From IMG/VR virus record IMGVR_UViG_3300035698_015309: DNA of 64,000 nucleotides. One strand, 5' to 3'. Positions 3,264-63,916 of this stretch are shown in pieces. The DNA comes from a virus (taxonomy: Duplodnaviria > Heunggongvirae > Uroviricota > Caudoviricetes). The position numbers and the translations under genes are program-made. How positions within the stretch are numbered: the first letter of the stretch is position 1; every line of letters begins with the position of its first letter. The notes beneath the pieces were generated by a model, which saw only the letters and a list, made by a program, of their open reading frames with translations, was not told the DNA's origin and did not search any database.

Positions 3264-3740
3264 CTACTCCGTGGCCGAGTCAGATGATCCCGTTTCGACT
3301 TTGACCATATAGCCATCCCGGATCTCCCACTGTGGATCCACGCAGAGACCCGCCACATGATCCTCTAAACAAAAATGACACAGGGGGGTTCGTCCGCAAA
3401 GATCACAGGACTCAAGAACACAACTGGGAGCCAGCAATTGGGAGCATTGGCAACACCGCTGCGGGGCACCTCTGTCAATGACGTCAGCAAGCTCTCGGAT
3501 CGAACAACCGCCCCAATGGCGACGTACCCACTTCCCCCAACCTGTCCGTTTGCTGGCTTTCTTATACAACTGACAGACATAAAAGCTGATCACCTGAGGC
3601 TGTTCTAGAGTGTCCCTGTACAAGGTAGCGAGAACATCGAACGCTTCCTCGCTGTCTGCTGCCCAGACGTAGCCAAGTACCCGAGGGTGTGCCTCTGCTG
3701 TTTGGTAAAAACCAGTCCAGAAGTTTGGTTTTTCAGGCAT
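3264..3740 (-). CDS. Cys-rich hypothetical protein
   Basis: Start MPEKPNFW. Minus-orientation motif at 3775-3810. Divergent from the HNH gene. Confidence 0.45.
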   Translation of the reverse strand: MPEKPNFWTGFYQTAEAHPRVLGYVWAADSEEAFDVLATLYRDTLEQPQVISFYVCQLYKKASKRTGWGKWVRRHWGGCSIRELADVIDRGAPQRCCQCSQLLAPSCVLESCDLCGRTPLCHFCLEDHVAGLCVDPQWEIRDGYMVKVETGSSDSATE

Positions 3741-3865
3741 GCTCGTGCTCCCACCCTGCAAAACGGTAACTCTCCACTCTGTCTACTCTGAAGCGTCCCC
3801 AGATGATCCCGGTGAAAGGCCTATAAAGGACGGAAGCTGTAAACCAGTCCGGGGAGGCTTAACAA

Positions 3866-6617: not shown

Positions 6618-6683
6618 TCCTCCTGGTGGGCGTCAGTGCCCCTCACCTTAACTACTCTGCAGGTTGCCCAGATGATCCCTGGA

Positions 6684-6938: not shown

Positions 6939-7180
6939 TGGGTGCTCCTTTTTCGGGGTCATTTGCCCCTCACCCTTGTCTACTCTGTGGGTCGGGGAGA
7001 TGATCCCTGAAAGTCAGAAGGCACAACCCCTCTTTCAAGGAGGTGCCGTTCAAGAGTGGCATAGTCCACATGAGGAAGGGGACGGCGGAACGCATCACGA
7101 ATACGCCTTCCCTCAGGTGTCCTGATAGGGATGTTTTGAAGGTTTGGCCCCTTTTTCCGGTCCCCTGTTTTTCCCATCAC

Positions 7181-9534: not shown

Positions 9535-9603
9535 TGTCTACTCAGAGAGGTTCCGAGATGATCCCTTTTGCTCGGTACGGTAGAGAAACACAGGAGGAAG
9601 ACC

Positions 9604-9956: not shown

Positions 9957-9982
9957 GATCATCGCCGGTCTTCCCCGAGTAG
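9957..9982 (+). promoter_or_regulatory. GATCATC-N13-GAGTAG promoter-like motif in front of the cas operon
   Basis: tGATCATCgccggtcttccccGAGTAGctgtgtgtataggggggacagATG; same two-box motif as upstream of >25 other genes. Confidence 0.4.
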
Positions 9983-10004
9983 CTGTGTGTATAGGGGGGG
10001 ACAG

Positions 10005-12365: not shown

Positions 12366-12459
12366 AAAAGTCTGCGGACAGGGGTTCCTTTTGCGACTTC
12401 ATTGAGTAGTAAGAAGTGCCGCCGAAGAAACTCGGCTGGATAAACAGACGGAGGGACAG

Positions 12460-14960: not shown

Positions 14961-15020
14961 TCTCTAATGGCCTAAGGTGGGCCTTAGAGTTGGATTAGGC
15001 ATAAAGTGAGGAGAAGTATC

Positions 15021-16031: not shown

Positions 16032-16227
16032 GGCCCTTTGCGAGCGGTTCCGTGGCGACGAAAACCCCGGAGTCGCTCGCAACCCAGAAAACCCCGTGAT
16101 CTGGGGTCGTTATACCGCAGCCGTTCTTTGATAACCGAACCAAACGGCTTGAAAAGTGACGGTTGGGAAGGACCGCTCGCAAAGGGGGCGGGAAAGCTGC
16201 GTCCCACAACGGTTTGCGAGGGGCACT

Positions 16228-17418
16228 GTCGCATCCTCTAACAAAGGATGCGTGGATTGAAACAGAGAGTACGTGCAGGCGTCCAGCGGGCTCAAGCCAA
16301 CGGAAAGTCGCATCCTCTAACAAAGGATGCGTGGATTGAAACGTTACTGCCCGCATGACACCCCGGATGAGATCACCAGTCGCATCCTCTAACAAAGGAT
16401 GCGTGGATTGAAACACTGTGGACCTGGCGGGGAAGAAGCCGACCTATGGTGGTGTCGCATCCTCTAACAAAGGATGCGTGGATTGAAACTTTCAAACAGC
16501 GACCCAGTCGAGTGCGACTTGGTGGGTGTCGCATCCTCTAACAAAGGATGCGTGGATTGAAACAAGTGCCTCGCCGTCAAGGATCCAGAGGGGAAGCTGA
16601 AGTCGCATCCTCTAACAAAGGATGCGTGGATTGAAACAGGCCCACAGAACGGCTCCCACGGCCTGGGGACGCCGTGTCGCATCCTCTAACAAAGGATGCG
16701 TGGATTGAAACGCTCAGAGGACTGCTCGACGGGACAAGACGGTCTTCCTCGTCGCATCCTCTAACAAAGGATGCGTGGATTGAAACTCGAAGTTGGGCGA
16801 AATCCAGGAATGACGGTCACAAGTCGCATCCTCTAACAAAGGATGCGTGGATTGAAACAATCCGATGACACTTCCCTTTCCTGTCCGCCCTTGGAGCGTC
16901 GCATCCTCTAACAAAGGGTGCGTGGATTGAAACGAGATCCCCCTTGCGACTCCCGCCCTGAAGGCGCTGGCGAAGTCGCATCCTCTAACAAAGGGTGCGT
17001 GGATTGAAACGTAAGCGAACTCCACCCCTGGTCCGTGGGTGACCGGTCGCATCCTCTAACAAAGGGTGCGTGGATTGAAACGCAGTGAGCCAGCGCCCCA
17101 CGAGCCATGCCTGCCTTACTGTCGCATCCTCTGAAAAAAGGATGCGTGGATTGAAACTAAATCCGATTTACGGGGAACTGGCTGGTCGGCTCACGTCGCA
17201 TCCTCTAACAAGGGGTGCGTGGATTGAAACGCTGATTCGGACTGATCCCTGAGAAGGCGCAACCCTGCCGTCGTACCATCTAACAAGGGGATGCGTGGAT
17301 TGAAACGAAACCGCAGCGAGGCAGAAGGGGTCACTCCCTCACGGGTGTGTGGATTGAAACATTAGGGTAGTAAGTGTAGACAACCTCGTCGTTCCCATGA
17401 GGGGGCGTGGATTGAAAC
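16228..17418 (+). CRISPR. Type I-C CRISPR array: 15 well-conserved 36-37-nt repeats (GTCGCATCCTCTAACAAAGGATGCGTGGATTGAAAC) plus 2 degenerate terminal repeats. Spacers 35-43 nt. Leader at 16035-16227.
   Basis: Repeat starts 16228, 16307, 16379, 16454, 16528, 16602, 16676, 16751, 16823, 16898, 16975, 17046, 17121, 17195, 17270; degenerate ends at 17360 and 17418. Distal repeats carry GGATGC->GGGTGC/GGGGTGC variants. Repeat ends in the I-C-typical GTGGATTGAAAC. Confidence 0.95.
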
Positions 17419-18430: not shown

Positions 18431-18816
18431 GTCGTATCCTTTGACAAAGGGTACTTGACAGTGCCCTTCATACCTGCTAAAGTCTAACTGTTCCTGCTTG
18501 AAACAGGGAGCTGTTGCGGCAGGAAAGCTCATGCTGATTGGGTAGGAGGTTCTGGTGTGCCCAGATGTTCTGGGGACGAACGCATCAAAACTAACGATCA
18601 TCCGAGAGGCATAAAACGAGTGCTAAGAGAGCGATTCCGTGTTAAACGGACCAGTTCCTTGGGATTCGGACGGAAGGAGCAACCGTCATTCGAGCCCTTA
18701 CCGTTGGGCCGGAAGTTTACTACCGAGGTACTTGGGACACCAAGATTCGGCACAGCTTCAAACTTGATGCCTGTTACATTTTAGCAGGTTTTAAGGAACG
18801 GTATGTGGATTGAAAC
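18431..18816 (+). repeat. Solitary CRISPR repeat split by a mini-element: 5' hairpin part GTCGTATCCTTTGACAAAGGGTAC (18431-18454) and 3' handle TGTGGATTGAAAC (18804-18816)
   Basis: The two halves reconstruct a repeat variant with the same hairpin. Insertion is at the stem-loop/handle junction. Confidence 0.65.
18449..18802 (+). mobile_element. Miniature omega-RNA-only element, copy B: LE palindrome GGGTACTTGACAGTGCCC (TTGACA-17-TAAAGT) fused by internal deletion to the tnpB 3' end/RE
   Basis: LE matches 7697 and 36179(-). Junction CTTGAAACAGGG|AGCTGTTGCGGCAGG identical to copy C. RE identical to the tnpB copies. ORF 18557..18784 is the in-frame remnant. Confidence 0.7.
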
Positions 18817-19730: not shown

Positions 19731-20315
19731 TCATTTGTTTTCTTCCGCCAGGAGCAACTCCTGGACCCGCTGGATTTCCTCGGTGGTGTGTATGGTGCCA
19801 CCGCTGTTCAGCCGCAGGTAGAACCGCAGCCGCTCTTTACGGGAAAGGTCCACAAACGAAACATGGACATTGGGTAACCGACGCACATCCCGCAGTGACA
19901 GGTCACGGAACCAGAACGCCTTCCCGTCGTCCATCTCCGCTGGGATCACCCCTTCTAGCCAACGGAGCGTCGCCCGGATCCTCTGTTGTCCGTCGATCAC
20001 CTCAGCCGCTGCGTCCAGCCAGGACACCCCCTCTGGAAGATTCTCGTCCGTCTCGTACCTCTGGATGTATATCGGCGGAACCGGACCACCTGTGATCAGG
20101 TGCCCTATGAAGCGGGACGCCTGCGAGTCCGTCCAGACCAGCCCCCTCTGATAGTCTGGGTTCAGGTCCCAAGGGACCTTGTTTTTCCGCCCAATCGCCC
20201 GAACCTCCTCCAGCAGGAAGTCTAGGGGAAAGTCTAACTGACCAGTTGGCAAGGGCCAGTCCTGGTAGCTACGCAGGGTCGAGTCCACTTCCGGCCTGTT
20301 TTTGACATTGCTTCC
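19731..20315 (-). CDS. DUF262 (ParB-like nuclease, GmrSD N-terminal-type) domain protein
   Basis: VIDGQQR motif. Start MGSNVKN. Full minus-orientation motif plus leader hairpin at 20350-20393. Confidence 0.55.
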   Translation of the reverse strand, partial: GSNVKNRPEVDSTLRSYQDWPLPTGQLDFPLDFLLEEVRAIGRKNKVPWDLNPDYQRGLVWTDSQASRFIGHLITGGPVPPIYIQRYETDENLPEGVSWLDAAAEVIDGQQRIRATLRWLEGVIPAEMDDGKAFWFRDLSLRDVRRLPNVHVSFVDLSRKERLRFYLRLNSGGTIHTTEEIQRVQELLLAEENK

Positions 20316-20542
20316 CATCGTTTCATTCTCCTCAGGGGTCATTTGCCCCTCACTTACTCTACTCAGCGGGGTCAGCAGATGATCCCATTGCACGTAAGGA
20401 TCTAAGGAAGGTGTGTCCGAAACGGCCCTTGAGCAAAGACCCCCAGAACTTTTGTTGATCATCTCAGATTCCGTTGGAGTAGTGTGGGTAGCCTGAGGAA
20501 GGCTCACTAACATCGGGGTGGACCCCCGAGAAGGAGAATGGG

Positions 20543-22456
20543 ATGGGGTTTCTTATCTGGATCCTGATGCTTACGGGCATCGGAGCGGTCGGTCTCGGCG
20601 TCTGGCTCATCGCAAGACGCAAAATCTGGATGCTGAAGACGTGGCGAAAGGTCACCCGCAAGGTCACGGACAAGGTCCAGATGATGGACCAACGGGTGAC
20701 ACAGACAGACTTCGACGCTCAGGTGCAGGTCGAGATGGACGCTGCGGAGGCGAACGTACCGAAGGGCTTGGGCTTGTTGAGCATCCCGCTCTTCCTGTAC
20801 GCCCTGTTGGCCATTTTCTTCAGTTCCATGATGGTGGACGTGCCGCAATCCGGGTTCATGGAACTGGAGCGGAACTTCGGTGGGGCTTCGATGCCCGCAG
20901 GCCAGATCATCGCTACACAAGGCGAGAACGGCCCCCAGGCAGCGCTGCTGTCCCCCGGTCTCAAGTGGGTCATGCCCTTCATGTACTCCACGAATGAACG
21001 GGAGCCTGTGGTTATCCCGGACGGGATGATCGGCGTGATCACCACCAAGGCGGGCAAGTCCATGCCGGAGGGAATGATCTACGGCCCCAAGTTCACGGAC
21101 TTCGACGGTTTCCTCGACGCCCAGGTCTTCCTGGATCATGAGGACGGGTACAAGGGCCAACAGGTGACAGTGGCCCTGCCGGGAACGTGGAAGTTCCACT
21201 CAGGGGTGTACTCGATGACAGAGGCACCTATGACCAACGTGGAGATGGGCCATGTGATGGTCGTGAAGGCCAACTACGGCGATGTGCCCGAGGAGCGGGC
21301 AACCATCGAGATCACGGATCTCGTGGAGAAGGAGATTGCCCTGTCCAAGGATGAACTGGAAGCGGCATATCTGGAGGCGGAAGACGCCGAGCAGCGACGG
21401 CTGCTGGCTGCGGGGGTGGCGGAGAAGGACATCAGGATCGACCGCAAGAGCTTGAAGGTGCGAAAGACCAAGATCGTGCTGGTGGAGGTCAAACGGAAGA
21501 TCCCCGACCCGCTGGTCGATGTGGGTGAGGCGGGCATCTGGCGTGATGCGCTGGTCCCCAACAAGTATCCAATGCATCCGTTCGCCCACGAGATGACGGA
21601 TATCAATACGATGCGCCTGCGAATCTCCTACACTCCGCCTGGTGAGGAAGGGGAAGACGACGGGCGGGTCATCGTCCGTAGCAAGGATGGGTACGAGTTC
21701 CCGATGGACATACGCATTGTGTACCATGTGGAACCAATGAACGCCCCTTGGGTCCGTGCAATGGTAGGTGACGACGAGAAGATCGGGGATGTCGTGATGA
21801 CCCCTACGGTCCTCTCAATCTCCCGTGTGCTGGCAGGTCGGTCCAACGTGCTGGACTTCTTCGCAGACCTGGAGGTCCGGCAGAAGGACGCTAAGGATCT
21901 CATCGCCAAGAAGTGCGCCGTGTACGGTGTGACGGTCGATGAGGTACTCATCGGGCGTGTGGGCGACGAGGCTTCCCTGGGTGAACTGATGAAAACCCAG
22001 CGGGACCGTGAGATCGCCGTGCAGCAGCAGGTCACCTTCGCCGTACAGCAGAAGGCAGCGGAACAGCAGAAGCGGCTGAACAAGACGATGCAGGAGGCGG
22101 AGGAGGAGAAGAAGCTCGCCGCCGCTGCGTATCAGGCCCAGGTCGCCGTACAAAACAAGAAGAAGACCATCACCGACGCTGAGGCCGCTGCCGAGAAGGT
22201 GACGATTGCAGCCACGGCTGAAGCCGAGCGGATCTTCAAGATCAAGAAGGCGGAAGCGGACGGCTACACCCTGAAGGTTGCCGCCCTTGGTCCCCAGGGG
22301 GTGGCAATGCTGGAAGCCTTCCTGATCATCTCCGAGGGCAAGATCAAGATCACCCCGAACGTCGCAGTCAGCGGCGGAGGTGCCAACGGGGGCAACAACG
22401 CCTTCGAGGCACTGATGGCCATGATGCTCCAAGAGAAGGCCGGACCCGCCAATTAG
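20543..22456 (+). CDS. SPFH/band-7 flotillin-like membrane protein (637 aa)
   Basis: N-terminal TM segment. Long Ala/Glu/Gln/Lys coiled-coil tail typical of flotillins. GATCATC-N13-GAGTAG at 20457-20482. Confidence 0.7.
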   Translation: MGFLIWILMLTGIGAVGLGVWLIARRKIWMLKTWRKVTRKVTDKVQMMDQRVTQTDFDAQVQVEMDAAEANVPKGLGLLSIPLFLYALLAIFFSSMMVDVPQSGFMELERNFGGASMPAGQIIATQGENGPQAALLSPGLKWVMPFMYSTNEREPVVIPDGMIGVITTKAGKSMPEGMIYGPKFTDFDGFLDAQVFLDHEDGYKGQQVTVALPGTWKFHSGVYSMTEAPMTNVEMGHVMVVKANYGDVPEERATIEITDLVEKEIALSKDELEAAYLEAEDAEQRRLLAAGVAEKDIRIDRKSLKVRKTKIVLVEVKRKIPDPLVDVGEAGIWRDALVPNKYPMHPFAHEMTDINTMRLRISYTPPGEEGEDDGRVIVRSKDGYEFPMDIRIVYHVEPMNAPWVRAMVGDDEKIGDVVMTPTVLSISRVLAGRSNVLDFFADLEVRQKDAKDLIAKKCAVYGVTVDEVLIGRVGDEASLGELMKTQRDREIAVQQQVTFAVQQKAAEQQKRLNKTMQEAEEEKKLAAAAYQAQVAVQNKKKTITDAEAAAEKVTIAATAEAERIFKIKKAEADGYTLKVAALGPQGVAMLEAFLIISEGKIKITPNVAVSGGGANGGNNAFEALMAMMLQEKAGPAN

Positions 22457-22514
22457 TCCCCTGCTGCCCCCTTCCCTACGGGGAGGGGGCGGTCCCTGGT
22501 CAAGGAGACCCCTC

Positions 22515-23078
22515 ATGAGCCTCACACTAGAAGACCTCCAAGATCACAAGAAGGTCAGTTGGGATACCTTCCGTTCGGTGCCGCTCGGGTTGCACGAAGG
22601 GGAGGAACTGGAGATCCGGTTCCTGCTGAACAAGGCTGGGGAGCACAAAATCGGCCTGTTTGACCCACGGCGCCACTGGTGGTCGGTGTGCTCATCCACT
22701 ACGGAGGAAGCGGACGCAGTTGTCAGCTTCAACGCCATCCTTGGTGCCGTCCCTACCCCGCTGCAAAGGAAAACCATCACCTTCCAGTCTGAGGGGGACA
22801 GCAAACCGGATTTCGAAAAGGGTGAGGATGAGGTCGTCAACTACCACCTCACCCTGTACGGCATGTTCGTTGGCAATCTCCGAGTCGGCAAATTCCAGGG
22901 TCAGGTAGAGCACTACGACACGATACTCTTCCCCGAATCAGCGCAGGACGATGCCGCCTATCAGATGCAGTACGGACAGCTTGTGCTCGCCTGTTACGAG
23001 TTCGTGCGGGGCCTCTACGACGCCCACGCTGCCGCTGCCCTTAGCCCCGTGGGATCATCTCCGGCACCCACAGAGTAG
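22515..23078 (+). CDS. hypothetical protein. C-terminal ...GSSPAPTE* is encoded by the intergenic motif.
   Basis: AAGGAG RBS. Stop codon is the TAG of GAGTAG. Confidence 0.45.
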   Translation: MSLTLEDLQDHKKVSWDTFRSVPLGLHEGEELEIRFLLNKAGEHKIGLFDPRRHWWSVCSSTTEEADAVVSFNAILGAVPTPLQRKTITFQSEGDSKPDFEKGEDEVVNYHLTLYGMFVGNLRVGKFQGQVEHYDTILFPESAQDDAAYQMQYGQLVLACYEFVRGLYDAHAAAALSPVGSSPAPTE

Positions 23079-23100
23079 ACAGGGTGTATGGAGGTGGCAA

Positions 23101-23301
23101 ATGACCACAGAACAGAGTCAGGCACTTCAAGGCGTACAGGGAAAAGTCATCAAAGACATAAAAGTCGGGGAGATGACCTCTTGGTGTGACAGCGGCGAGG
23201 TCCAGATCCGGTGCAGCGACGGAACGATCATTCGGATCAGTACCATTGCCGATGCCGAGGACAACAGAGCCTTCCTCGCACTGTCCGTCACCGTGCGGTA
23301 G
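23101..23301 (+). CDS. hypothetical small protein
   Basis: Full motif plus GGAGG upstream. Confidence 0.35.
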   Translation: MTTEQSQALQGVQGKVIKDIKVGEMTSWCDSGEVQIRCSDGTIIRISTIADAEDNRAFLALSVTVR

Positions 23302-23751
23302 TTGGGACTCCGACAACCACCGGGGGTTATCATCGAAGCCCCACGTCCGTCCCTGTGCCTGCACCCGGACGATCATCCTTTATGGGAAACAATGGAACGG
23401 CTGGCTTGGGTTCTTGCGAACAGTCACGGTCTACCCCTCCATTTTGTAGAACCCAAACGTAGACCCCTGTCCGATGGAGCAGCGGGAGTATGCTATTGCC
23501 ACGAGAGGCGTATTGCAATCCGGCTCCGGTGTAAGGATCGTGTAGAAGACGGCGGGGGGTGGTGGTCGAAGCCAGACCCCTGGGATCAGATCGTATTGAC
23601 GGTTGCCCATGAGGTTGCCCACCTCCGACATCCCAATCACGGAGCAGACTTCAAGGACCTGGAACAACGCCTGTACCGAGAAGCTCAGGAACTGCTAGGG
23701 TGTTGGGATCATCCCCGGCACCCACAGAGTAGACAGGGTGAGGGGGAATGA
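23302..23751 (+). CDS. SprT/Wss1-like putative zinc metallopeptidase (HEVAHLRHPNHGADF)
   Basis: HExxH...H motif. Start uncertain (TTG 23302 or ATG ~23389). Confidence 0.4.
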   Translation: MGLRQPPGVIIEAPRPSLCLHPDDHPLWETMERLAWVLANSHGLPLHFVEPKRRPLSDGAAGVCYCHERRIAIRLRCKDRVEDGGGWWSKPDPWDQIVLTVAHEVAHLRHPNHGADFKDLEQRLYREAQELLGCWDHPRHPQSRQGEGE

Positions 23752-23770
23752 CCCCCGAGGAGGATCTTAA

Positions 23771-24346
23771 ATGAGTGGCTACCCCACACGATATACTGCA
23801 GAAGGTTGTGACAGCCAATGTGTGTACCGTTCCTGTATGTGGCCGGGTGAGGACAAGGGGATCCTTGCCCAGGGCCGGGGCTACACTCGTTATCACAAGA
23901 AACCGCTCCCCGTCTGTATGCAGAGACATCTTCATGGGTGCCCCTATCTGAAACCCAAACCAGACGTTGAGAACGCCCGATGTTGTTACGCACCCAATTA
24001 CAAACGTAAGGGCAAGGCTCCCTCAGGATGGCGTACCTGTGAGACCTGCGGAACAATGGTCCCCCTTCAGGTGGCCAAAGCACTTAACAACCTCCCAAAA
24101 CGGGATGGCGTTCCTTGCCTACATGAACAGGTAGAACCGTCCATCATAACTGGTTGGTTTGAGTGCCCCTCTTGTCGTTACAAGCATAAGGGTGTTTTCG
24201 ATCATCGGCCTCTCCCCTTTGAGAAACCGAACAAAACACTGCAAGAACTGTATGACACCCTGGAGGTGCGACTTAACCAAACCGCAGAGAGTGAAATGAC
24301 TCTTGAAGGCGGATCGGCGGGATCATCTCCCCGACCCACAGAGTAG
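23771..24346 (+). CDS. Cys-rich hypothetical protein ending ...GSSPRPTE*
   Basis: Full motif plus leader hairpin plus GGAGG upstream. Confidence 0.45.
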   Translation: MSGYPTRYTAEGCDSQCVYRSCMWPGEDKGILAQGRGYTRYHKKPLPVCMQRHLHGCPYLKPKPDVENARCCYAPNYKRKGKAPSGWRTCETCGTMVPLQVAKALNNLPKRDGVPCLHEQVEPSIITGWFECPSCRYKHKGVFDHRPLPFEKPNKTLQELYDTLEVRLNQTAESEMTLEGGSAGSSPRPTE

Positions 24347-24382
24347 TTAAGGTGAGGGGCAAATGACCCCTGGGAGGATGCG

Positions 24383-24637
24383 ATGACCCTGGAGCAACTG
24401 TTTGACAAGCATGGGAACTGCCCGACCATGGGCGACCCCTACCGGAACAGCAACCCAACCACGGATCTGCTGTTCGATGAGTACGGGGATGTGCTGCCCA
24501 CGGCCCTGGCCTTCCTGAGGCGGCTTGTTCAGGAACGGAAGGTGAAGCCGATGTGCGACGCCATCACGATCCTGATGGCTGACCGCTTCGCCTGCAACAC
24601 GAAGTGCAACTATAACGCCATCACAATGTGGCGCTAG
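24383..24637 (+). CDS. hypothetical small protein
   Basis: Motif, leader hairpin (with MTPGRMR mini-uORF), GGAGG. Confidence 0.4.
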   Translation: MTLEQLFDKHGNCPTMGDPYRNSNPTTDLLFDEYGDVLPTALAFLRRLVQERKVKPMCDAITILMADRFACNTKCNYNAITMWR

Positions 24638-26274: not shown

Positions 26275-26379
26275 TGAAGGACGATCATCAACGGATACCT
26301 GAGAAGGAAGAGATCATCCTGGTGTCCGGTTGAGTAGTACAGGTGAGGGGCAAAGGACCCCTGACAAAGGAGCCCAACG

Positions 26380-26649
26380 ATGACGACATCACTGAACCCC
26401 GTTGACTGGGACGACGACCATGTGGTCGTTATTTCCTTCCTCCACAACCATGGAAGCAACTCCCGGTACCTGACTGCCAACGAACAATGGTATGTGTTTT
26501 GCCGTGGTAACGGATTCGGAAACTGTACTTCCGAACAACTGGAACACAGCGGTTGGAACTGGTCACACGTCAGGGATTCAGACGATACAGGATATGCAAG
26601 GATGGCCAACTGTGTGCGAGAACTGGTGCCCGAGGCGGAACAGAAATAA
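26380..26649 (+). CDS. hypothetical small protein
   Basis: Motif plus hairpin plus AAAGGAG upstream. Confidence 0.4.
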   Translation: MTTSLNPVDWDDDHVVVISFLHNHGSNSRYLTANEQWYVFCRGNGFGNCTSEQLEHSGWNWSHVRDSDDTGYARMANCVRELVPEAEQK

Positions 26650-27631: not shown

Positions 27632-27704
27632 GAAGGAAGGGATCATCTCACCACCCTGTTGAGTAGTCCAAGTGAGGGGCAAACGTCCCCTGGGAGGCTC
27701 ACCG

Positions 27705-28094
27705 ATGGACATGCAAAAGTTTGTAGGGAAACCCTGCACCGTGTACGAGTGGGTGGGAGAGATGGAGTGGCAGCAGGAGGGATGGAGCCAGGGGGGGCCT
27801 CTCCCCGTCCCGTGGACTGTCACCACGGCGGAAGAAGGCGGTCAGCAAGCCCCAGAAGTGCGGAAGGCTGTCGGGGTCATCCGGGAGTGTTCCCTCATGG
27901 GGGACAACCCCCGACTGCTGTGCATGGTGGAGTTGTCCGATGGCACCCTCTGGCGAGGGGACTCTCAGGATCACAACTTTGACATTGAGTTAGAGAAGGG
28001 AGCGGACGGGAGTCTGACGCTGACGTGGGGAAGCCCCGATGGAAGCGACACGCTGTGGAAGGACCTGTGGGTACACATCCCCGCTGCCTACTAG
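27705..28094 (+). CDS. hypothetical protein
   Basis: Motif plus hairpin plus GGGAGG upstream. Confidence 0.4.
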   Translation: MDMQKFVGKPCTVYEWVGEMEWQQEGWSQGGPLPVPWTVTTAEEGGQQAPEVRKAVGVIRECSLMGDNPRLLCMVELSDGTLWRGDSQDHNFDIELEKGADGSLTLTWGSPDGSDTLWKDLWVHIPAAY

Positions 28095-28180
28095 GAGCAC
28101 GACAAAAAGGGATCATCTCACCGACCTGCTGAGTAGTTAAAGTGAGGGGGCAAATGACCCCTGACAAGGAGACCAACGCA

Positions 28181-28813: not shown

Positions 28814-29837
28814 TGATAGTTTAGACCCCAGGATACCCCATCTAGCGGGTGTCCTGGGGGGCCTTATGTTATTAGGGGACGCTTGGTTTGTTGAACATTT
28901 CAGGAAAACCAGAAAACGGGGTAACACGATAGCTGGTCGTCAATGGACCTTGCGAGTAAAGCAAGAAAAACCTGTCCTGACAAAAATTTGTGACCGCTGT
29001 GGACATAAAGAGATCACCTTATCGAGTCCATTATCTCGGGTTCGGCACGTGGTTAAACAAGCTGTAGAACAGGAACAGAAGTGGGGTCTGCATCTTTGCC
29101 CCAAATGTGCTCGTAAGGAGGCACGCAAAAAGGCAGCTATTACGAGAGCAACGCCCGGATGGAGTGAGAACTTTGGTCGTCAAGTAGCTTTGGGTCTGGC
29201 TTTAATACCGTCAGACAAAAATGCAGAACGATATGAAAGAGCACGTCAAACCCGTATTGCCACCTATTCCCGCATGACACCGAAGGAACGACGCAGAGGT
29301 GTCGTCAAGCAATGGCAAACAATGACGGAGGAGGCTAAACAACGGAGAGCAAAAAAAATAGGCGAGGGTGCCAAAAAAGTTTGGGCCTCATTAACGCCAG
29401 AACAAAGAAACCAACGGGTTGCTCGGATGATCAAGGGGCTCCCTCGATCAAAGATATCGGATGATTTTCGACAACATCTGATAGATGCGAGATTGTATGC
29501 AGGCTTTGTAAGTGAACAAGTCATTTCAGGTTTCACCGTTGATGAGGCTAATGAGACCTTGAAAGTGATCCTTGAGTTCTTTGGGGACTACTATCATTGT
29601 AACCCGAGTAACCCCAAATTCTCAGACCCTGAGTTCTACAACACAACAATCCGAATGACATCGGCCCAAAAATGGCAGTATGATCGCCGTCGTTTAGCGG
29701 GACTCAGAAAAGTAGGGTACCGTATTCTAGTGGTATGGGAAAGTGACTGGCGTAAAAACCCTGAAGATGTGTTGAGCAGAGTGCGGACATTTCTGAATCA
29801 GTTTAAAACGGGATCATCTGCGGACCCCACAGAGTAG
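28740..29837 (+). CDS. free-standing endonuclease between the ligA halves; C-terminal Vsr/DUF559-like nuclease domain. Start uncertain (overlaps the IntN end).
   Basis: FFGDYYHCNP...QKWQYDRRRLAGLRKVGYRILVVWESDW. Frame differs from both ligA halves. Ends in the ...GSSADPTE* motif. Confidence 0.55.
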   Translation: MSRIKGGLKLKISRVKTCLTVPNNPDSLDPRIPHLAGVLGGLMLLGDAWFVEHFRKTRKRGNTIAGRQWTLRVKQEKPVLTKICDRCGHKEITLSSPLSRVRHVVKQAVEQEQKWGLHLCPKCARKEARKKAAITRATPGWSENFGRQVALGLALIPSDKNAERYERARQTRIATYSRMTPKERRRGVVKQWQTMTEEAKQRRAKKIGEGAKKVWASLTPEQRNQRVARMIKGLPRSKISDDFRQHLIDARLYAGFVSEQVISGFTVDEANETLKVILEFFGDYYHCNPSNPKFSDPEFYNTTIRMTSAQKWQYDRRRLAGLRKVGYRILVVWESDWRKNPEDVLSRVRTFLNQFKTGSSADPTE

Positions 29838-31734: not shown

Positions 31735-32357
31735 CGATGGGTGAGGTCGTACCAGGACCAGGGACGCTTCAGTTTGCGCTGGACAGCATAAATGATCCGG
31801 TGTTGCAAAAGGTTAAGGACCAGCAGCCCCTCACCCCTGAAGACCAAAATCATCTGAGGGAAAAGATGGGGCTTCCTGGTCCTGAGCATGTGCCTTGGGG
31901 TCATGGCCCCTGGAAACGGGACGACCCGGATATGCTCGCCCTTGATTATTTGAAGGACACTACGGTTTTTGGCTCCTGTGATAAGGAGACAGATGAATAC
32001 CTGGAGAACACAATCTGGGAGTGGTACCGAGGTGTGAGACTCGCATTCCAAGAGTGTGGGTGCCAAAACTGCATGCAGATTGGAGAGGCAAAAACGATGA
32101 CAGCGCCCGCTGCAATTGCCCGTGGTGAAAGGCACTACGCAGCCGTAATGAACAAACGCCTGCCACGGGGGTGGAGAAAACAGCCTAAAGTGCTGGCCCT
32201 CATTGCCAAGTTTGACCAGGAACTGAAGGCAGCAGGCAACGATCTCATGCGGACGGCACGGGGGGACAACTACGCTGGGGATACAGCACCTGAGGCAACC
32301 GGGCCAATCGGAAAGGAATGGACCCTTCGGGAATGGCCTCGGGAGTACAGTTGGTGA
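31731..32357 (+). CDS. hypothetical protein; paralogue of the gene at 33031 (VPGPGTLQFA..., CGCQNC)
   Basis: ATGA-coupled to ligA. Confidence 0.45.
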   Translation: MTMGEVVPGPGTLQFALDSINDPVLQKVKDQQPLTPEDQNHLREKMGLPGPEHVPWGHGPWKRDDPDMLALDYLKDTTVFGSCDKETDEYLENTIWEWYRGVRLAFQECGCQNCMQIGEAKTMTAPAAIARGERHYAAVMNKRLPRGWRKQPKVLALIAKFDQELKAAGNDLMRTARGDNYAGDTAPEATGPIGKEWTLREWPREYSW

Positions 32358-32968
32358 TGAACACTGAGGCTACAAACGTCACCAGCCAGTGGTTGGGACA
32401 GAACTGGCAGACCTTTCAGGAAGCGGGACATTACGGTCTCCGTACCTGGGCGGTGCCCATCCCTTCAAGTGATGTGGAGGACGTGATCCAGGACACGGCC
32501 ATACAATTCATTCATGTCGATGCTCTTCGCTTCTTCATTCACCGGGAAGGGGAGGAACTGAAAAGCTCTCTGACCTTAGACCGACTAGGTCTGTTTATAG
32601 CCCGTAAGGCCATCAAGTGGCTCCAACGAGCCGGTCAAGACGTAGTTCCCCGTAGCAGCCTGGGGGCACAGACAAAATGGGAGTGGCAAGGCAAAACCAC
32701 AGCACCACAGCCGCCCACATCGTATGAAGTGGACCCGTCGAACAGCCAATGGACAGCGGGTTGTCAAATGGAGCTTGTGGAGTCCGTTTGCACTCAGATC
32801 TTTCCGGACAACGCTGAACGGTACGTGGCTATCATCAAACGAAGGGTTGAAGGTTACAGCCAGACTGAGATAGCCGCAGAGTTCGGTTCTACTAAGGGTC
32901 GGATCGGTCGTGTTCTCCAGCGTGTTCGTCGGGAGTTTCAGCCCTTCCGGGAGGCCCTTTGCAGTTGA
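32357..32968 (+). CDS. sigma-70-family-like protein (region-4 HTH: YSQTEIAAEFGSTKGRIGRVLQRVRREF)
   Basis: C-terminal r4.2-type HTH. ATGA overlap with the upstream gene. Confidence 0.45.
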   Translation: MNTEATNVTSQWLGQNWQTFQEAGHYGLRTWAVPIPSSDVEDVIQDTAIQFIHVDALRFFIHREGEELKSSLTLDRLGLFIARKAIKWLQRAGQDVVPRSSLGAQTKWEWQGKTTAPQPPTSYEVDPSNSQWTAGCQMELVESVCTQIFPDNAERYVAIIKRRVEGYSQTEIAAEFGSTKGRIGRVLQRVRREFQPFREALCS

Positions 32969-33030
32969 CGGGATCATCTGTGGCGGCGGCAGAGTAGTGT
33001 GGATGAGGCACTAGACTTAGAGGATGACTG

Positions 33031-34209: not shown

Positions 34210-34700
34210 GCCAGGAAAAGTGGACGCCGGAAACAGTCAAAACCTTCCGAGAGAAACGTGGCCTCAATCAACATGCCCTCGGTGTCCTCATGGGGTACGT
34301 GGGTCAGCGTTCTACCACGATGGCACACAGTGAGCAGAGGCTCCCGGACGGGACACCCCGCCGCTCCCTGACGATTGCGGACAGGGTTCGCCTGGACTAC
34401 CTCCAGCAGTTGCCCCTCCCTGAGTTGTATGCACTACTGAGGGACAACGATGCTGATCCCAAGGACAATGCCAAGTGGGTCCAGATCAGCATCTGGGAGT
34501 ATGAGTTCCGTGAGCGGGGCGAAGTCAAAGCGGAGTGTTGCCCCATTATGCAGGACGACGGGTCGCTGATGTGGGGTGTGCGGGTACTGCCCATGACATT
34601 CCCCTTCGAGGAAATACGCCTGTATCGCATACTACGGAGCGCCAAGTGCTCCGTTCAGGGGACGGCAGAGGAAACCTCGGATCATCCTGTGTGCCTGTAG
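34206..34700 (+). CDS. XRE-type HTH domain protein
   Basis: TFREKRGLNQHALGVLMGYVGQRSTTMAHSEQ is a typical HTH_XRE. Confidence 0.5.
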   Translation: MSQEKWTPETVKTFREKRGLNQHALGVLMGYVGQRSTTMAHSEQRLPDGTPRRSLTIADRVRLDYLQQLPLPELYALLRDNDADPKDNAKWVQISIWEYEFRERGEVKAECCPIMQDDGSLMWGVRVLPMTFPFEEIRLYRILRSAKCSVQGTAEETSDHPVCL

Positions 34701-34754
34701 GAGTAGATCAAGTAACTGGGGGATGTGAGGCCCCGCTGAAACAAGGAGACGACC

Positions 34755-37297: not shown

Positions 37298-37326
37298 ATG
37301 GAGTAGACCAAGTCAGGAGGTGTTCC

Positions 37327-41067: not shown

Positions 41068-41371
41068 GGAACAGCAGATGGTTGCCGTTCTCGTCGCTGC
41101 TGGTACGTCCGCCTACGGGGACGACAGCAAACTGACTGATACCGCTCGTGACTGGCTCTCCGCAAGGTTTTCCCCCGAGGACACACAGTTCTGGTTGGAA
41201 GCTGGCTGCTGGGATGTCAAGGTCGCCAGGGCCTTCAAGGACGCTGACCTGGACTCCGAGGACGTAGAGTTCGAAACTGCCAAGCCCACCAAGAGCACGA
41301 TTGCCCATAAGGTCTGCGCCGGGGAGATATCCCTGAACGCCGCCATCCGCATCGCCAAGAGCCGCCAGTAG
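41060..41371 (+). CDS. hypothetical protein
   Basis: ATGA-coupled to the tnpB-like gene. AGGAG RBS. Confidence 0.4.
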   Translation: MLEEQQMVAVLVAAGTSAYGDDSKLTDTARDWLSARFSPEDTQFWLEAGCWDVKVARAFKDADLDSEDVEFETAKPTKSTIAHKVCAGEISLNAAIRIAKSRQ

Positions 41372-41417
41372 ATCATCGACCTAGCTGTGCGAGTAGATCC
41401 CTGTAGGAGGTTCCGCT

Positions 41418-44597: not shown

Positions 44598-44968
44598 GCC
44601 TCCTCGAAACACTCCAGAACGTAGACTGCGCCACGCCGTGCCTGAAGTGTGGTCGCCACCTTGAATGGAACAGGCACGCCCACCATGTGGAGGGCAATGA
44701 CTTGGTCCTGGGTTGCCCCGACTGTAGTAAAGGGACGGAAGGCCTCCCCTGCCATCACCGTACTGTTCTGGGGGCAACTCCGCCGAGAGATCCTCGGAAG
44801 ATCATCCTCGGACATTCGGGAGTAGACCCTGTGAGGAGGAAGGATGGGCAGGTTGCTTCAGTTCGAAGATGGTGTACTCCGCAGGAAACTCCAAGAGTTG
44901 CTCATCAGCGTCGACCGGCTCGACTTCAAATTCCTCCGTTTCTTCACCATTTGTGTCGGGTGTGGTAA
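44594..44968 (+). CDS. zinc-ribbon protein (TTG start). 3' extent doubtful (overlaps the next gene and its motif).
   Basis: CLKCGRH...CPDCSKG. Confidence 0.3.
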   Translation: MSLLETLQNVDCATPCLKCGRHLEWNRHAHHVEGNDLVLGCPDCSKGTEGLPCHHRTVLGATPPRDPRKIILGHSGVDPVRRKDGQVASVRRWCTPQETPRVAHQRRPARLQIPPFLHHLCRVW

Positions 44969-48906: not shown

Positions 48907-48952
48907 AGAGATTATCGGTGCCTCTGTCTGAGTAGACAGGGTAGGAGGCTTC

Positions 48953-52261: not shown

Positions 52262-52332
52262 CTGCCGGGATCATCCTGGCCAGTGGCTGAGTAGAGTGTG
52301 TGAGGGACAAAGACCCGGACAAGGAGCATCCA

Positions 52333-53966: not shown

Positions 53967-54176
53967 ATGCCCGGACACGACTGCCACTTCCTGACCTATA
54001 GGGTAGAACTCAACTACGACACGAAACGCTGGGAGGTGAAGCACGCTTCAGGTTACGTTGTAGCCGACACCCGGACCCGCAACGAGGCCCTCCTGATCCG
54101 GCGACGGTTGCGGGCCATCCAGGTTGACATCACAGACACCTTGCAAAGAGGGTCATCCGAGGCATCCTTAGAGTAG
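53967..54176 (+). CDS. hypothetical small protein
   Basis: ORF. Confidence 0.35.
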   Translation: MPGHDCHFLTYRVELNYDTKRWEVKHASGYVVADTRTRNEALLIRRRLRAIQVDITDTLQRGSSEASLE

Positions 54177-54224: not shown

Positions 54225-54440
54225 ATGACAGACGCAACAAAGAAGACCCGCATCGTGATCAGTACAGGCGGTCTGCACTGCGGAAAGTACGAACCATCTG
54301 AGGAGACACTCAGGAAACTTAAGGGAGTCATCGTGGATGCAGTGGGGAAACAACTGAGGGGTGAGGCTGGTCCCAGCGAACCCTGGCCCTTTGACCCGGT
54401 CCTTCCCATCAAGGGATCATCTGAGGACTCCGCAGAGTAG
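54225..54440 (+). CDS. hypothetical small protein
   Basis: GAGTAGA plus AAGGAG upstream. Confidence 0.35.
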   Translation: MTDATKKTRIVISTGGLHCGKYEPSEETLRKLKGVIVDAVGKQLRGEAGPSEPWPFDPVLPIKGSSEDSAE

Positions 54441-56251: not shown

Positions 56252-56339
56252 AGAACTAACACTGTCGATCACCTTAAGTGGGTGTCCTATGGGATCATCT
56301 CGTCAGGCGGCAGAGTAGTCTGGGTAGGAGGACACCACA

Positions 56340-57997: not shown

Positions 57998-58324
57998 ATG
58001 AGGTGGCCCTGGCAATGGTTCAGGCGAGAGCCCTGCGAAGTTCACAGCTACGGGCTTGAGAAACGACTCGCCCTGGCCCCCCGAACGTCACTAGCCCCAG
58101 CCTGGACCAGGAGGTACCCCCACACAAGGCACTTCCTGGTCTGGTTTGACCAGTCCATCTGTCAACGGTGCGGACACCGACCCTTTGCTGTGGTGCGGAA
58201 GGTGGCGGCAGCAAATGCCCTAGAATATGCTGGGTACATACATTCCCGCAGGTACCAGAGGGCTGGCTGGTTGGACCTGGGCAAACAGCCCAAAGATCAT
58301 CCGAGTCCCCGCCTGAGTAGATGA
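57998..58324 (+). CDS. hypothetical protein
   Basis: ORF. Confidence 0.3.
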   Translation: MRWPWQWFRREPCEVHSYGLEKRLALAPRTSLAPAWTRRYPHTRHFLVWFDQSICQRCGHRPFAVVRKVAAANALEYAGYIHSRRYQRAGWLDLGKQPKDHPSPRLSR

Positions 58325-63790: not shown

Positions 63791-63916
63791 GTCCCCTCCG
63801 TTCTGTAAGTCTACTCCGTAACACCGGGCAAGGGCACAATCGGAGACCCTCAGAGATCATCAAGGGTGCGATTGGAGTAGAGCTTGTGTGGATGGAACTT
63901 GAAGGAGAGTTGACTA

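What the first reader, a model, noticed from the sequence alone, without database searches (positions are those of the whole stretch)
23053..23110. Pervasive two-box motif GGGATCATCT-N12/13-GAGTAGAC upstream of more than 30 genes on both strands
Full copies occur at about 9960, 20457, 23055, 23710, 24321, 26305, 27645, 28114, 29812, 32964, 34684, 41386, 44801, 48912, 52270, 54415, 56291, 58300 and 63873 on the plus strand, and at 3262-3300, 3775-3810, 6645-6690, 6965-7010, 9535-9565 and 20350-20393 on the minus strand. Half-sites (GAGTAGA only) occur before several more genes (17470, 37298, 42053, 49289, 54172, 61503). The motif always sits 10-60 nt before a GGAGG RBS, in the orientation of the downstream gene, including in front of cas3. 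It does not resemble sigma70 -35/-10 boxes. It looks like a promoter class read by an element-encoded factor (a sigma-like gene is at 32357) or an RNA-level processing signal.
Basis: seen in the sequence. Interest (0 to 1): 0.7.

Follow-up and report, generated by a model that had tools for sequence, protein, structure and literature searches.

The report
Huge-phage promoter class with its own sigma
A 528-kb Antarctic "huge" phage places the same two-box DNA signal (GGGATCATC, 13 bases, GAGTAG) in front of about half of its transcription units, and this is most likely a phage-specific promoter read by a very divergent sigma factor that the phage itself encodes.

Summary
The window holds 26 copies of GATCATC(≤1 mismatch)-N13/14-GAGTAG, where about 0 are expected. 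All 26 lie in intergenic DNA or on the last bases of the upstream gene, and all point towards the downstream gene. Twenty-five precede an RBS and start codon; one precedes a tRNA gene. About eight more genes have only the GAGTAG box.

The window comes from the published 528-kb Ace Lake huge phage. The strict motif recurs many times in other Antarctic phage contigs. It occurs only at chance level in 596 Gb of bacterial and archaeal genomes.

Canonical TTGACA-N17-TAnnnT promoters occur only on the IS elements. The two boxes show no RNA pairing. A separate conserved 5'-leader hairpin follows about a third of the copies.

Verdict: a new phage sigma/promoter pair, that is, a new member of a known kind. 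No transcript data exist.

The parts
3264..3289 (-). motif copy (GATCATC-N13-GAGTAG) upstream of ORF 2898-3221(-)
3783..3808 (-). motif copy upstream of ORF 3264-3740(-)
6652..6677 (-). motif copy followed by a leader hairpin, upstream of the 513-aa ORF 5070-6611(-)
6980..7005 (-). motif copy followed by the hairpin GAGGGGCAAATGACCCC (6955-6971), upstream of ORF 6684-6962(-)
9538..9563 (-). motif copy upstream of tRNA-Ile(GAT) 9400-9471(-); the only copy with no RBS after it
9957..9982 (+). motif copy (TTGATCATC) upstream of cas3 10005-12365; divergent partner of the copy at 9538-9563(-)
20359..20384 (-). motif copy plus hairpin (20335-20351), upstream of ORF 19731-20342(-); back-to-back with the copy at 20457
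20457..20482 (+). motif copy upstream of the SPFH-domain gene 20543-22456
23053..23078 (+). motif copy at the finding's coordinates, upstream of ORF 23101-23301; its TAG is the stop codon of ORF 22515-23078
23707..23732 (+). motif copy plus hairpin GGGGGAATGACCCCC, upstream of ORF 23771-24346; right border of a strain-specific 1.2-kb indel
24321..24346 (+). motif copy plus hairpin (24354-24370), upstream of ORF 24383-24637
26312..26337 (+). motif copy plus hairpin (26345-26361), upstream of ORF 26380-26649
27641..27666 (+). motif copy plus hairpin (27674-27690), upstream of ORF 27705-28094
28111..28136 (+). motif copy plus hairpin (28145-28161), upstream of ORF 28154/28181-28816
29812..29837 (+). 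motif copy heading the operon NAD-ligase (29869-31734), ORF 31737-32357, sigma (32357-32968)
32357..32968 (+). divergent ECF-type sigma factor (203 aa; alternative start at 32318); candidate reader of the motif
32972..32997 (+). motif copy directly after the sigma gene, upstream of ORF 33031-33654
34680..34706 (+). motif copy with the only N14 spacer, upstream of ORF 34755-35021
41371..41396 (+). motif copy upstream of ORF 41418-42026
44800..44825 (+). motif copy heading a 4-kb run of small ORFs (44844-48906)
48910..48935 (+). motif copy (GATTATC variant) upstream of ORF 48953-49291
52269..52294 (+). motif copy plus a weaker hairpin, upstream of ORF 52333-52755
54151..54176 (+). motif copy (GGTCATC variant) upstream of ORF 54225-54440
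54415..54440 (+). motif copy upstream of the small ORF 54480-54671
56293..56318 (+). motif copy upstream of ORF 56340-57053
58295..58320 (+). motif copy upstream of ORF 58341-58559
63855..63880 (+). motif copy upstream of an ORF that starts near 63917 and runs off the window; divergent from the GAGTAG-only site at 63811-63816(-)
37301..37308 (+). example of a GAGTAG-only site, upstream of ORF 37327-37932. Others: 12404, 17471, 42057, 49286, 55300, 61507 (+) and 63816 (-)

Best explanation
The motif is a phage-specific promoter.

Proposed mechanism (inferred):
- GGGATCATC acts as a -35-like box and GAGTAG(A) as a -10-like box.
- The 29-30 bp from the first conserved G to the last conserved A matches the footprint of a two-domain (sigma2 + sigma4) sigma factor.
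- Host core RNA polymerase is directed to these sites by the phage's own divergent ECF-type sigma factor (ORF 32357-32968). Its sigma4 domain reads the upstream box and its sigma2 domain reads GAGTAG.
- Transcription would start about 6-8 nt downstream, at the conserved GTG(A).
- The mRNA then begins either directly with the Shine-Dalgarno sequence or with a short G/C hairpin (GGGG-CAAATGA-CCCC) that probably protects the 5' end or binds a phage factor.
- The sigma gene itself lies behind such a promoter, giving positive feedback.

Shown: the anatomy, position, orientation, statistics and phylogenetic distribution of the motif, the sigma fold of the ORF, and the pairing of sigma lineages with motif variants.

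For: - Statistics: 26 sites against about 0 expected.
- Position: all sites are intergenic or on the last ≤26 nt of the upstream ORF, all are co-oriented with the downstream gene, and they lie 16-60 nt before the start codon. Twenty-two of 52 intergenic gaps ≥20 nt carry the motif.
- Divergent pairs: back-to-back copies at 20359-20384(-)/20457-20482(+) are 72 bp apart, and 9538-9563(-)/9957-9982(+) form a second pair. They leave no room for other promoters, and no sigma70-type site was found in the 20-40 kb stretch that holds the first pair.
- One copy precedes tRNA-Ile and has no RBS, so the signal is not tied to translation.
- Selection on the boxes: in a 95%-identical relative the two boxes are 100% conserved, 6 of 12 spacer bases differ, and the flanks do not align at all.
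- Conservation elsewhere: 40 further unique sites with the same consensus in 19 stretches (14 contigs) from IMG/VR, and 23 metagenome stretches.
- Element specificity: only 3 single, chance-level hits of the strict 19-base pattern in 596 Gb from 185,579 species genomes.
- Internal contrast: perfect TTGACA-N17-TAnnnT promoters occur 4 times against 0.56 expected, and all four are on IS/TnpB elements. Sigma70-type sites overall are not enriched: 8 found against 6.9 expected.
- Pairing of sigma lineage with motif:
  - A relative at 40% identity (L027) has GATCATCT-N12-GAGTAG 20 nt before its own gene.
  - Relatives at about 30% identity (L028, L029, L031) have TGCTTAG-N14-[GC]AGTAG, 7 times in 20.6 kb against 0 expected.
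  - A relative at 23-25% identity, on a 418-kb contig (L035), has GGCTTAC-N14-GCGTAGAT, 9 times in 20.6 kb.
  - The latter two motifs were recovered as the top dyads by an unbiased enumeration.
  - The motifs are mutually exclusive between lineages. The core GTAG(A) and the geometry are kept.
- In all four lineages the sigma gene lies 0-3 genes downstream of a cognate motif.
Against: - There are no transcript 5' ends and no binding data. The phage is uncultured and the host is unknown.
- The sigma scores below the curated family threshold: 24.1 bits against a cut-off of 42.9.
- The boxes lack the AAC/CGT signatures typical of ECF promoters.
- The motif is so frequent (one per 2.5 kb) that the sigma gene lying behind a copy is weak evidence for autoregulation.
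- If all units, including the sigma's own, depend on this sigma, the source of the first sigma molecules is unexplained.
- Only 64 of 528 kb were seen. Another sigma or a phage RNA polymerase may be encoded elsewhere.
- Two further sigma relatives (L032, L037) showed no recognisable equivalent motif.
- I could not show that the other motif-bearing IMG/VR contigs encode the sigma, because only parts of them are held.
Confidence: 0.6

Rival explanations
1. The motif is a promoter, but it is read by something other than ORF 32357-32968. Candidates are another phage-encoded sigma, a phage-encoded RNA polymerase located in the 464 kb not seen here, or an alternative sigma factor of the unknown host.
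For: - All the positional evidence for a promoter applies equally.
- Only 12% of the genome was examined.
- Jumbo phages often encode their own polymerases (general knowledge).
- The sigma scores below curated thresholds.
- Having the sigma gene behind its own promoter type creates a start-up problem.
- The sigma was not found on the other motif-bearing contigs as far as they are held.
Against: - Three sigma lineages go with three motif variants of the same geometry.
- A variable spacer between two short boxes is typical of sigma recognition, not of single-subunit polymerases.
- No polymerase subunit was found among about 95 window ORFs scanned.
- The strict motif is absent from 185,579 species genomes.
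Confidence: 0.22
2. Sigma appropriation of the T4 middle-promoter type. The upstream box GGGATCATC is the site of a phage activator that replaces -35 recognition, while host sigma reads the downstream box. ORF 32357-32968 would then be that activator (a sigma4/LuxR-like HTH protein), not a true sigma.
For: - The geometry resembles a T4 MotA box: a 9-nt box, about 12-13 nt, then the -10 element (established knowledge of T4).
- The upstream box varies between lineages while the downstream box is kept.
Against: - The downstream box GAGTAG does not fit TAnnnT. The IS elements in the same genome do carry canonical TTGACA/TAnnnT promoters.
- HMM and Foldseek alignments span both sigma2 and sigma4, and the N-terminus has a DxEDxxQ motif like region 2.
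- The box is not palindromic.
Confidence: 0.08
3. The motif acts at the RNA level as a processing, stability or translation signal in polycistronic transcripts.
For: - Many copies sit between co-directional genes just before an RBS.
- A conserved hairpin with compensatory changes follows about a third of the copies.
Against: - The two boxes are not complementary to each other, and the spacer between them is free to vary.
- Divergent back-to-back pairs would each need a further promoter in the 72 bp between them, and none was found.
- One copy precedes a tRNA gene.
- The hairpin is a separate, optional element downstream of the boxes. Half of the copies run straight into the RBS.
Confidence: 0.04
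4. The motif is a selfish or recombinational repeat (a MITE-like or cassette-junction sequence) that has spread through the genome and has no regulatory role.
For: - Some copies share identical spacers and leaders, for example 6978-7007(-) and 24319-24348(+), and 23051 and 23705.
- A roughly 70-nt cassette aligns between contigs.
- A strain-specific indel ends exactly at a copy.
Against: - Orientation is perfect with respect to genes (26 of 26) and the distance to the start codon is fixed.
- Only the boxes are conserved, not the spacers.
- Equivalent but different motifs occupy the same position in related phages.
- Spread as promoter-plus-gene modules is compatible with the promoter reading.
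Confidence: 0.04

Closest known systems
ECF (group 4) sigma factors and their two-box promoters (e.g. E. coli sigmaE GGAACTT-N16-TCTGA; B. subtilis SigW; M. tuberculosis SigH)
   Same: The protein is about 200 aa with only sigma2- and sigma4-like domains. The promoter has two short boxes at a fixed distance spanning about 29 bp. The sigma gene lies behind its own promoter type. The promoter bears no resemblance to housekeeping promoters.
   Different: The protein scores below the curated family threshold and has only 7 full-length relatives among 1.84 billion representative proteins. The boxes (GGGATCATC / GAGTAG) lack the usual AAC and CGT signatures. It is encoded by a phage and appears to drive a large share of the genome rather than a small stress regulon. 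No anti-sigma partner was identified.
Phage-encoded sigma factors with private promoters (B. subtilis SPO1 gp28 and gp33/34; coliphage phiEco32 gp36, an ECF-like sigma; T4 gp55)
   Same: A phage supplies its own sigma that redirects host core polymerase to a phage-only consensus present before many genes.
   Different: Those phages have 40-170 kb genomes and use the sigma for middle or late classes after host-sigma-dependent early transcription. Here no early host-type promoters were seen in the 64 kb apart from those on IS elements. The consensus is unrelated. This comparison rests on my knowledge of those systems, not on a test made here.
T4 middle promoters (MotA box at -30 plus a sigma70 -10 element; AsiA/MotA sigma appropriation)
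   Same: A 9-nt upstream box, a spacer of about 12-13 nt and a downstream box. The upstream box differs between related phages.
   Different: The downstream box is not TAnnnT. No MotA or AsiA homologue was detected among the window ORFs scanned. The candidate factor has a sigma2-like N-terminal domain.
PeSL cassettes of T4-type phages and lambdoid 'morons' (mobile promoter/stem-loop units flanking small accessory genes)
   Same: Near-identical promoter-plus-stem-loop units are repeated before many small ORFs of unknown function. A strain-specific three-gene indel is bounded by a copy.
   Different: Here the stem-loop lies downstream of the promoter in the 5' leader and is not a terminator upstream of it. 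Recombination at the cassettes was not shown.

Membership tests
sigma70 family, group 4 (ECF) sigma factor (protein 32357-32968) | Two-domain architecture: sigma2 and sigma4 only, about 170-220 aa | tested here: met
sigma70 family, group 4 (ECF) sigma factor (protein 32357-32968) | Score above the curated family cut-off (TIGR02937 42.9 bits; Pfam Sigma70_r4_2 25.7 bits) | tested here: not met
   The scores are 24.1 bits and 19.3 bits. Six of 8 relatives hit TIGR02937 at E≤0.01, best 3.9e-9. It is a divergent outlier, not a curated member.
sigma70 family, group 4 (ECF) sigma factor (protein 32357-32968) | Binds core RNA polymerase and confers promoter specificity | not testable with these tools
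   This needs biochemistry.
ECF-type promoter | Two conserved boxes at a fixed spacing, total span about 28-30 bp, with non-conserved spacer sequence | tested here: met
   Twenty-five of 26 sites have exactly N13 between GATCATC and GAGTAG. The conserved columns span -22 to +6. Spacer information content is low.
ECF-type promoter | Typical sequence signatures: AAC in the -35 box and CGT/GTC in the -10 box | tested here: not met
   The consensus is GGGATCATC / GAGTAGA.
ECF-type promoter | The sigma gene is itself preceded by the cognate promoter (autoregulation) | tested here: inconclusive
   True in the window (motif 29812 heads the ligase-ORF-sigma operon) and in L027, L029 and L035. The motif is frequent enough for this to happen by chance.
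Housekeeping sigma70 promoter (TTGACA-N17-TATAAT) | Match to the two consensus hexamers at 16-18 nt spacing | tested here: not met
   The motif has no such match. Sigma70-type sites are not enriched, 8 against 6.9 expected. The four perfect TTGACA-N17-TAnnnT sites are all on IS elements.
T4-type middle promoter (MotA/AsiA) | Downstream sigma70 -10 element TAnnnT, and MotA and AsiA homologues encoded by the phage | tested here: not met
   The downstream box is GAGTAG. No MotA or AsiA family hit appeared in the Pfam, PHROGs or NCBIfam scans of window ORFs. Only 64 of 528 kb were seen.
Single-subunit (T7-like) phage RNA polymerase promoter | One contiguous conserved block of about 20 bp running into the start site, and a phage RNAP gene | tested here: not met
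   Two boxes are separated by a 12-13-nt spacer with little conservation. No RNAP domain was found among the window ORFs. The rest of the genome was not examined.
Known RNA families (Rfam 15) | Match at the gathering threshold over the motif or the leader hairpin | tested here: not met
   The only Rfam hit in the window is the tRNA at 9406-9466(-).

The most novel reading that the evidence does not exclude
A clade of 400-530-kb phages may run a largely self-contained gene-expression module made of three parts:
- a private, fast-evolving ECF-like sigma whose sigma4 domain and upstream promoter box co-diverge between phage lineages;
- a promoter placed before almost every transcription unit, including tRNA and CRISPR-Cas genes;
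- a conserved 5'-leader hairpin (loop CRRAYGA) that is the binding site of a further phage factor, acting in antitermination or in control of translation or stability.

Because even the sigma gene depends on this promoter, the sigma would have to be delivered with the virion or made from an as yet unseen host-type promoter.
Probability: 0.15. Interest if true: 0.65.

Novelty: new member of a known kind. Interest (0 to 1): 0.45.

Why it matters
Huge phages are known almost only from metagenomes, and most of their genes have no recognisable function. A genome-wide promoter consensus with a candidate cognate sigma offers several uses:
- It gives a first handle on how such a genome is transcribed.
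- It defines transcription units for hundreds of ORFans.
- It shows that the phage's CRISPR-Cas genes and a tRNA are under phage-type control.
- It provides three natural sigma/promoter pairs of identical geometry that could be tested as orthogonal expression parts.
- It gives a sequence tag that recognises fragments of this phage group in metagenomes.

The kind of system, a phage sigma with private promoters, is well known, so the conceptual surprise is moderate.

Tried and rejected
- Megablast of 24 kb of the window against the phage and plasmid collections found no match.
- The search for homologous proteins with the sigma returned only the sigma itself.
I therefore could not test whether the other motif-bearing contigs encode the sigma.
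- The paralogues flanking the sigma gene (31737-32357 and 33031-33654) are not sigma-like by hhalign.
- The proteins next to the sigma gene in related phages are not conserved, so no candidate anti-sigma emerged.
- Overall 5'-leader folding energy after the motif is no lower than that of random 40-mers. Only a subset has the specific hairpin.
- GATC is not depleted in the window, 409 observed against 427 expected, so there is no sign that the GATC inside the box is special with respect to restriction or methylation.
- I considered a mini-ORF starting at the ATG in the hairpin loop. The ATG is not conserved (loops CAAAGGA, CAAACGT, CGGACGA), so I rejected it.
- A second upstream box for the GAGTAG-only sites showed no convincing consensus beyond two similar sites at 12404 and 37301.
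- No equivalent motif was found around the sigma relatives in L032 and L037.
- A literature search for the box sequences returned only unrelated primer matches. The two papers that describe this phage do not mention a sigma factor or a promoter.
Full report
**1. The observation**

At the coordinates given, the sequence reads GGGATCATCT-CCGGCACCCACA-GAGTAGAC-AGGGTGTAT-GGAGG-TGGCAA-ATG.
- The exact pattern GGGATCATCT-N10-15-GAGTAGAC occurs 6 times against 0.00 expected in dinucleotide-preserving shuffles.
- GAGTAGAC alone occurs 13 times against 1.4 expected.
- Allowing one mismatch in GATCATC gives 26 sites, 25 with exactly 13 nt between GATCATC and GAGTAG and one with 14.
- A weight matrix from the 25 N13 sites shows conserved columns GG-GATCATC-t, weaker C at -5 and -2, then GAGTAG-a-N4-GTGa. 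The score distribution is bimodal: 25 sites at ≥16 bits, none in 50 Markov-shuffled windows. The matrix was built from those same 25 sites, so this control is partly circular.

Its 'half-site' at 54172 is a full site with one mismatch.

**2. Position**

I used my own rough gene call.
- All 26 sites lie in intergenic DNA or on the last ≤26 nt of the upstream ORF, although about 85% of the window is coding.
- All 26 point towards the next gene.
- The distance from the end of GAGTAG to the start codon is 16-60 nt (with the ligase and 54480 starts read).
- Twenty-two of 52 intergenic gaps of ≥20 nt carry the full motif, and 6 more carry only [GC]AGTAG.
- Two intergenic regions hold back-to-back divergent copies: 20359-20384(-)/20457-20482(+), 72 bp apart, and 9538-9563(-)/9957-9982(+).
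- The copy at 9538-9563(-) has no RBS after it. Instead tRNA-Ile(GAT) at 9400-9471(-) follows 66 nt later.
- In about six cases the TAG inside GAGTAG is the stop codon of the upstream ORF. That is roughly what one expects for a motif that contains a stop codon, so I do not regard it as a finding.

**3. Source**

The 756-aa protein of the window is encoded on JGI contig Ga0208769_1000001 (528,260 bp, sample 3300025697).
- This is the '~528 kb huge phage' of Ace Lake, Antarctica, described by Panwar et al. 2020 (PMC7416419).
[quoted passage not shown] - They do not mention a sigma factor or promoters.
- The host is unknown.

**4. Distribution**

The strict 19-base pattern GGGATCATCT-N12-GAGTAG-N5-GTG matches 10 of the window's 26 sites.
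- In IMG/VR it is found in 19 stretches from 14 contigs. Each stretch has further relaxed copies.
- These stretches share almost no nucleotide similarity with the window apart from an IS-type repeat and one 95%-identical 5.5-kb contig.
- From them I collected 40 additional unique sites with the same consensus, the same GTG after 5 nt, and an RBS and ATG downstream.
- In 596 Gb of genomes from 185,579 bacterial and archaeal species the pattern occurs 3 times, once per contig. That is the chance level: about 4 are expected for 19 specified bases, by my arithmetic.
- In JGI metagenomes it occurs in 23 stretches, mostly from one sample that holds a 77-98% identical relative of the phage.
- The motif is therefore specific to this phage group. 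The caveat is that a host using a degenerate version would not be detected by a 19-base pattern.

**5. Selection on the boxes**

Upstream of the ligase gene, the window and the 95%-identical relative align only over the 42-nt promoter region. Within it both boxes are identical, while 6 of the 12 spacer bases differ.

**6. Not a housekeeping promoter**

- Sigma70-type sites are not enriched in 20-40 kb: 8 found against 6.9 expected.
- Perfect TTGACA-N16-18-TAnnnT sites occur 4 times against 0.56 expected.
- All four lie on IS/TnpB-associated sequences (7704, 18455, 36145-, 39436).
- Transposable elements in this genome therefore carry canonical promoters, while the phage's own genes carry the GATCATC/GAGTAG motif.

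**7. Candidate reader**

ORF 32357-32968 shows the following:
- It gives a weak Sigma70_r4_2 hit.
- It matches TIGR02937 (sigma70-ECF) at E=2.3e-5 across residues 39-194, below the curated cut-off.
- A full HMMER search of 1.84 billion representative proteins finds only seven full-length relatives.
- Six of the eight family members hit TIGR02937, best E=3.9e-9.
- The family profile finds ECF SigE, SigR and SigH as the best PDB sequences at E≈1e-3.
- An AlphaFold2 model (pLDDT 77.6) gives only sigma factors or sigma-containing RNAP complexes among the top 50 Foldseek PDB hits. ECF types come first and the alignments run over about 195 columns. E-values (≥4e-3) and TM-scores are weak, as expected for two flexibly linked domains.

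I conclude that it is a highly divergent ECF-type sigma. The sigma4 part is solid and the sigma2 part is reasonably supported. No RNA polymerase subunit or other sigma was detected among about 95 window ORFs.

**8. Link between sigma and motif**

In the window the sigma gene is third in an operon (NAD-ligase, ORF, sigma) headed by the motif at 29812. I looked up the genomic contexts of the sigma relatives.

| Lineage (loci) | Identity to window sigma | Motif | Copies seen |
|---|---|---|---|
| P0002 (L027) | 40% | GATCATCT-N12-GAGTAG | 1, 20 nt before its own start codon |
| P0003/P0004 (L028, L029, L031) | about 30% | cTGCTTAG-N14-[GC]AGTAG | 7 on the gene strand in 20.6 kb of L029, 0 expected; one heads an RNA-ligase-sigma operon |
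| P0007 (L035, on a 417,917-bp contig with the NAD-ligase nearby) | 23-25% | GGCTTAC-N14-GCGTAGAT | 9 in 20.6 kb, again followed by leader hairpins and an RBS |

- An unbiased enumeration of gapped dyads returns the L029 and L035 motifs as the top dyads in those loci.
- The three motifs are mutually exclusive between lineages.
- They share their geometry and the downstream core GTAG(A). The upstream box differs.
- This is what one expects if a conserved sigma2 reads the downstream box and a diverging sigma4 reads the upstream box (inference).

Weak points:
- Two more distant relatives (L032, L037) showed no recognisable motif.
- The held parts of the other IMG/VR contigs do not include a sigma gene.
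- The motif is frequent enough that finding the sigma gene behind a copy is weak evidence for autoregulation.

**9. Downstream anatomy**

After GAGTAG-N5-GT(G/A) the leaders fall into two types.
- In one type the RBS follows at once, for example GTAGGAGG.
- In the other, a hairpin of the type GGGG-CAAATGA-CCCC begins 8-9 nt after GAGTAG. There are six close copies of GAGGGGCAAATGACCCC in the window, all directly after a motif, against 0.35 expected, plus looser variants.
- The 418-kb relative has hairpins at the same place with different stems and a similar loop: GGGCA-CGGACGA-TGCCC and GGCCA-CGGACGA-TGGCC.
- On twelve such sequences, 4 of 5 stem pairs show changes on both sides and 93% of cells pair, against 38-70% for slid controls.
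- The caveat is that these sequences were chosen because they form the hairpin.
- If transcription starts at the conserved GTG, the hairpin lies 2-4 nt from the 5' end. That is the position of known 5'-terminal stabilising stem-loops (established knowledge for ompA-type leaders; inference here).
- The conserved loop suggests protein binding.
- This is the only RNA-level element. The two boxes themselves are not complementary (GGGATCATC against GTCTACTC), and Rfam finds nothing there.

**10. Mechanism proposed**

Host core polymerase plus the phage ECF-like sigma recognises GGGATCATC (-35-like) and GAGTAGA (-10-like). It initiates 6-8 nt downstream and transcribes one to about fifteen genes. 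The sigma is itself made from such a unit.
- The main rival is a different reader encoded in the unseen 464 kb, or a host alternative sigma (0.22).
- Next come a T4 MotA-like activator model (0.08), an RNA-level signal (0.04) and a non-regulatory repeat (0.04).

**11. Comparison with known systems and novelty**

The system works like known phage sigma/promoter pairs (SPO1 gp28, phiEco32 gp36) and like ECF sigma regulons.
- As a family member, the protein fails the curated ECF thresholds and the boxes lack the AAC/CGT signatures. I call it ECF-like rather than a curated member.
- The repeated promoter-plus-stem-loop units before small ORFs, and a strain-specific three-gene indel that ends exactly at a motif copy, recall the PeSL cassettes of T4-type phages and 'morons'.
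- I found no description of this motif or of this sigma in the searchable literature.
- Novelty: a new member of a known kind.
- Interest is moderate. It gives a usable transcription map and three natural orthogonal sigma/promoter pairs for an uncultured huge-phage clade, but the principle is familiar.

Noticed in passing
window 9400-9471 (-): A tRNA-Ile(GAT) gene lies 66 nt downstream of the motif copy at 9538-9563(-). A small ORF with an RBS follows it near 9357(-). It is the only tRNA in the window.
   Followed up: yes
window 7704-7732, 18455-18483, 36145-36173(-), 39436-39464: Perfect sigma70-type promoters (TTGACA-N17-TAAAAT, TAAAGT or TACCAT) occur 4 times against 0.56 expected. All four lie on IS/TnpB-associated sequences and none lies before an ordinary phage gene.
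   Followed up: partly
window 1-256, 7697-7760, 8925-9212, 18447-18809, 35825-36180, 51308-51813: A repeated element of about 220-350 nt is shared at 82-100% identity with other Antarctic phage contigs (L001, L005, L017, L049, L053, L055). It is probably the ends or omega-RNA regions of the IS605/IS607-type TnpB elements at 7773-9281, 39676-41067 and 50373-51797. Some copies (18447-18809, 35825-36180) have no adjacent tnpB.
   Followed up: partly
window 6955-6971(-), 20335-20351(-), 23741-23755, 24354-24370, 26345-26361, 27674-27690, 28145-28161; L035 1253-1273, 4452-4472, 6058-6078, 7267-7287: A conserved 5'-leader hairpin (GGGG-CAAATGA-CCCC) begins 8-9 nt after the motif. The 418-kb relative has different stems with a similar loop (CGGACGA or CGAACGA), so the loop consensus is CRRAYGA. 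Four of 5 stem pairs show compensatory changes.
   Followed up: partly
window 22498-23703 versus L045 3456-3469: A related strain (contig Ga0307992_1008397) lacks three genes present in the window. The right border of the indel coincides with the start of the motif copy at 23705. This suggests gain or loss of promoter-plus-gene modules.
   Followed up: no
window 12381-12409 and 37279-37306: Two GAGTAG-only sites share a different upstream sequence, GGGGTTCCTTTTGCGAC and GGGGTCGCTTTTCGGCT. They lie before the cas5-cas8c-cas7 operon and before ORF 37327. They may represent a second promoter class with the same downstream box.
   Followed up: partly
window 31737-32357 and 33031-33654: Two paralogous ORFs (43% identical, 206 and 207 aa, no family hits) flank the sigma gene. 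They are not sigma-like by profile comparison.
   Followed up: partly
window 37929-38696: This ORF has metallo-beta-lactamase-fold hits, including the anti-Pycsar Apyc1 family (precomputed Pfam; PHROG 392). It is a likely counter-defence cyclic-nucleotide phosphodiesterase.
   Followed up: no
window 9987-17011: A type I-C CRISPR-Cas locus comprises Cas3, Cas5, Cas8c/Csd1, Cas7 and an array with repeat GTCGCATCC...GGATGCGTGGATTGAAAC at about 16528-17011. No cas1, cas2 or cas4 is present, as already published. cas3 has a full motif copy, and the cas5 operon has only the GAGTAG box.
   Followed up: partly
L029 (ERZ23486368 scaffold_82) 10001-10633 and 15416-16054: A related phage contig carries two paralogous copies of the sigma (about 40% identical to each other) 5 kb apart. 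One lies behind an RNA ligase and a DNA methyltransferase. Only one motif class was seen there.
   Followed up: no
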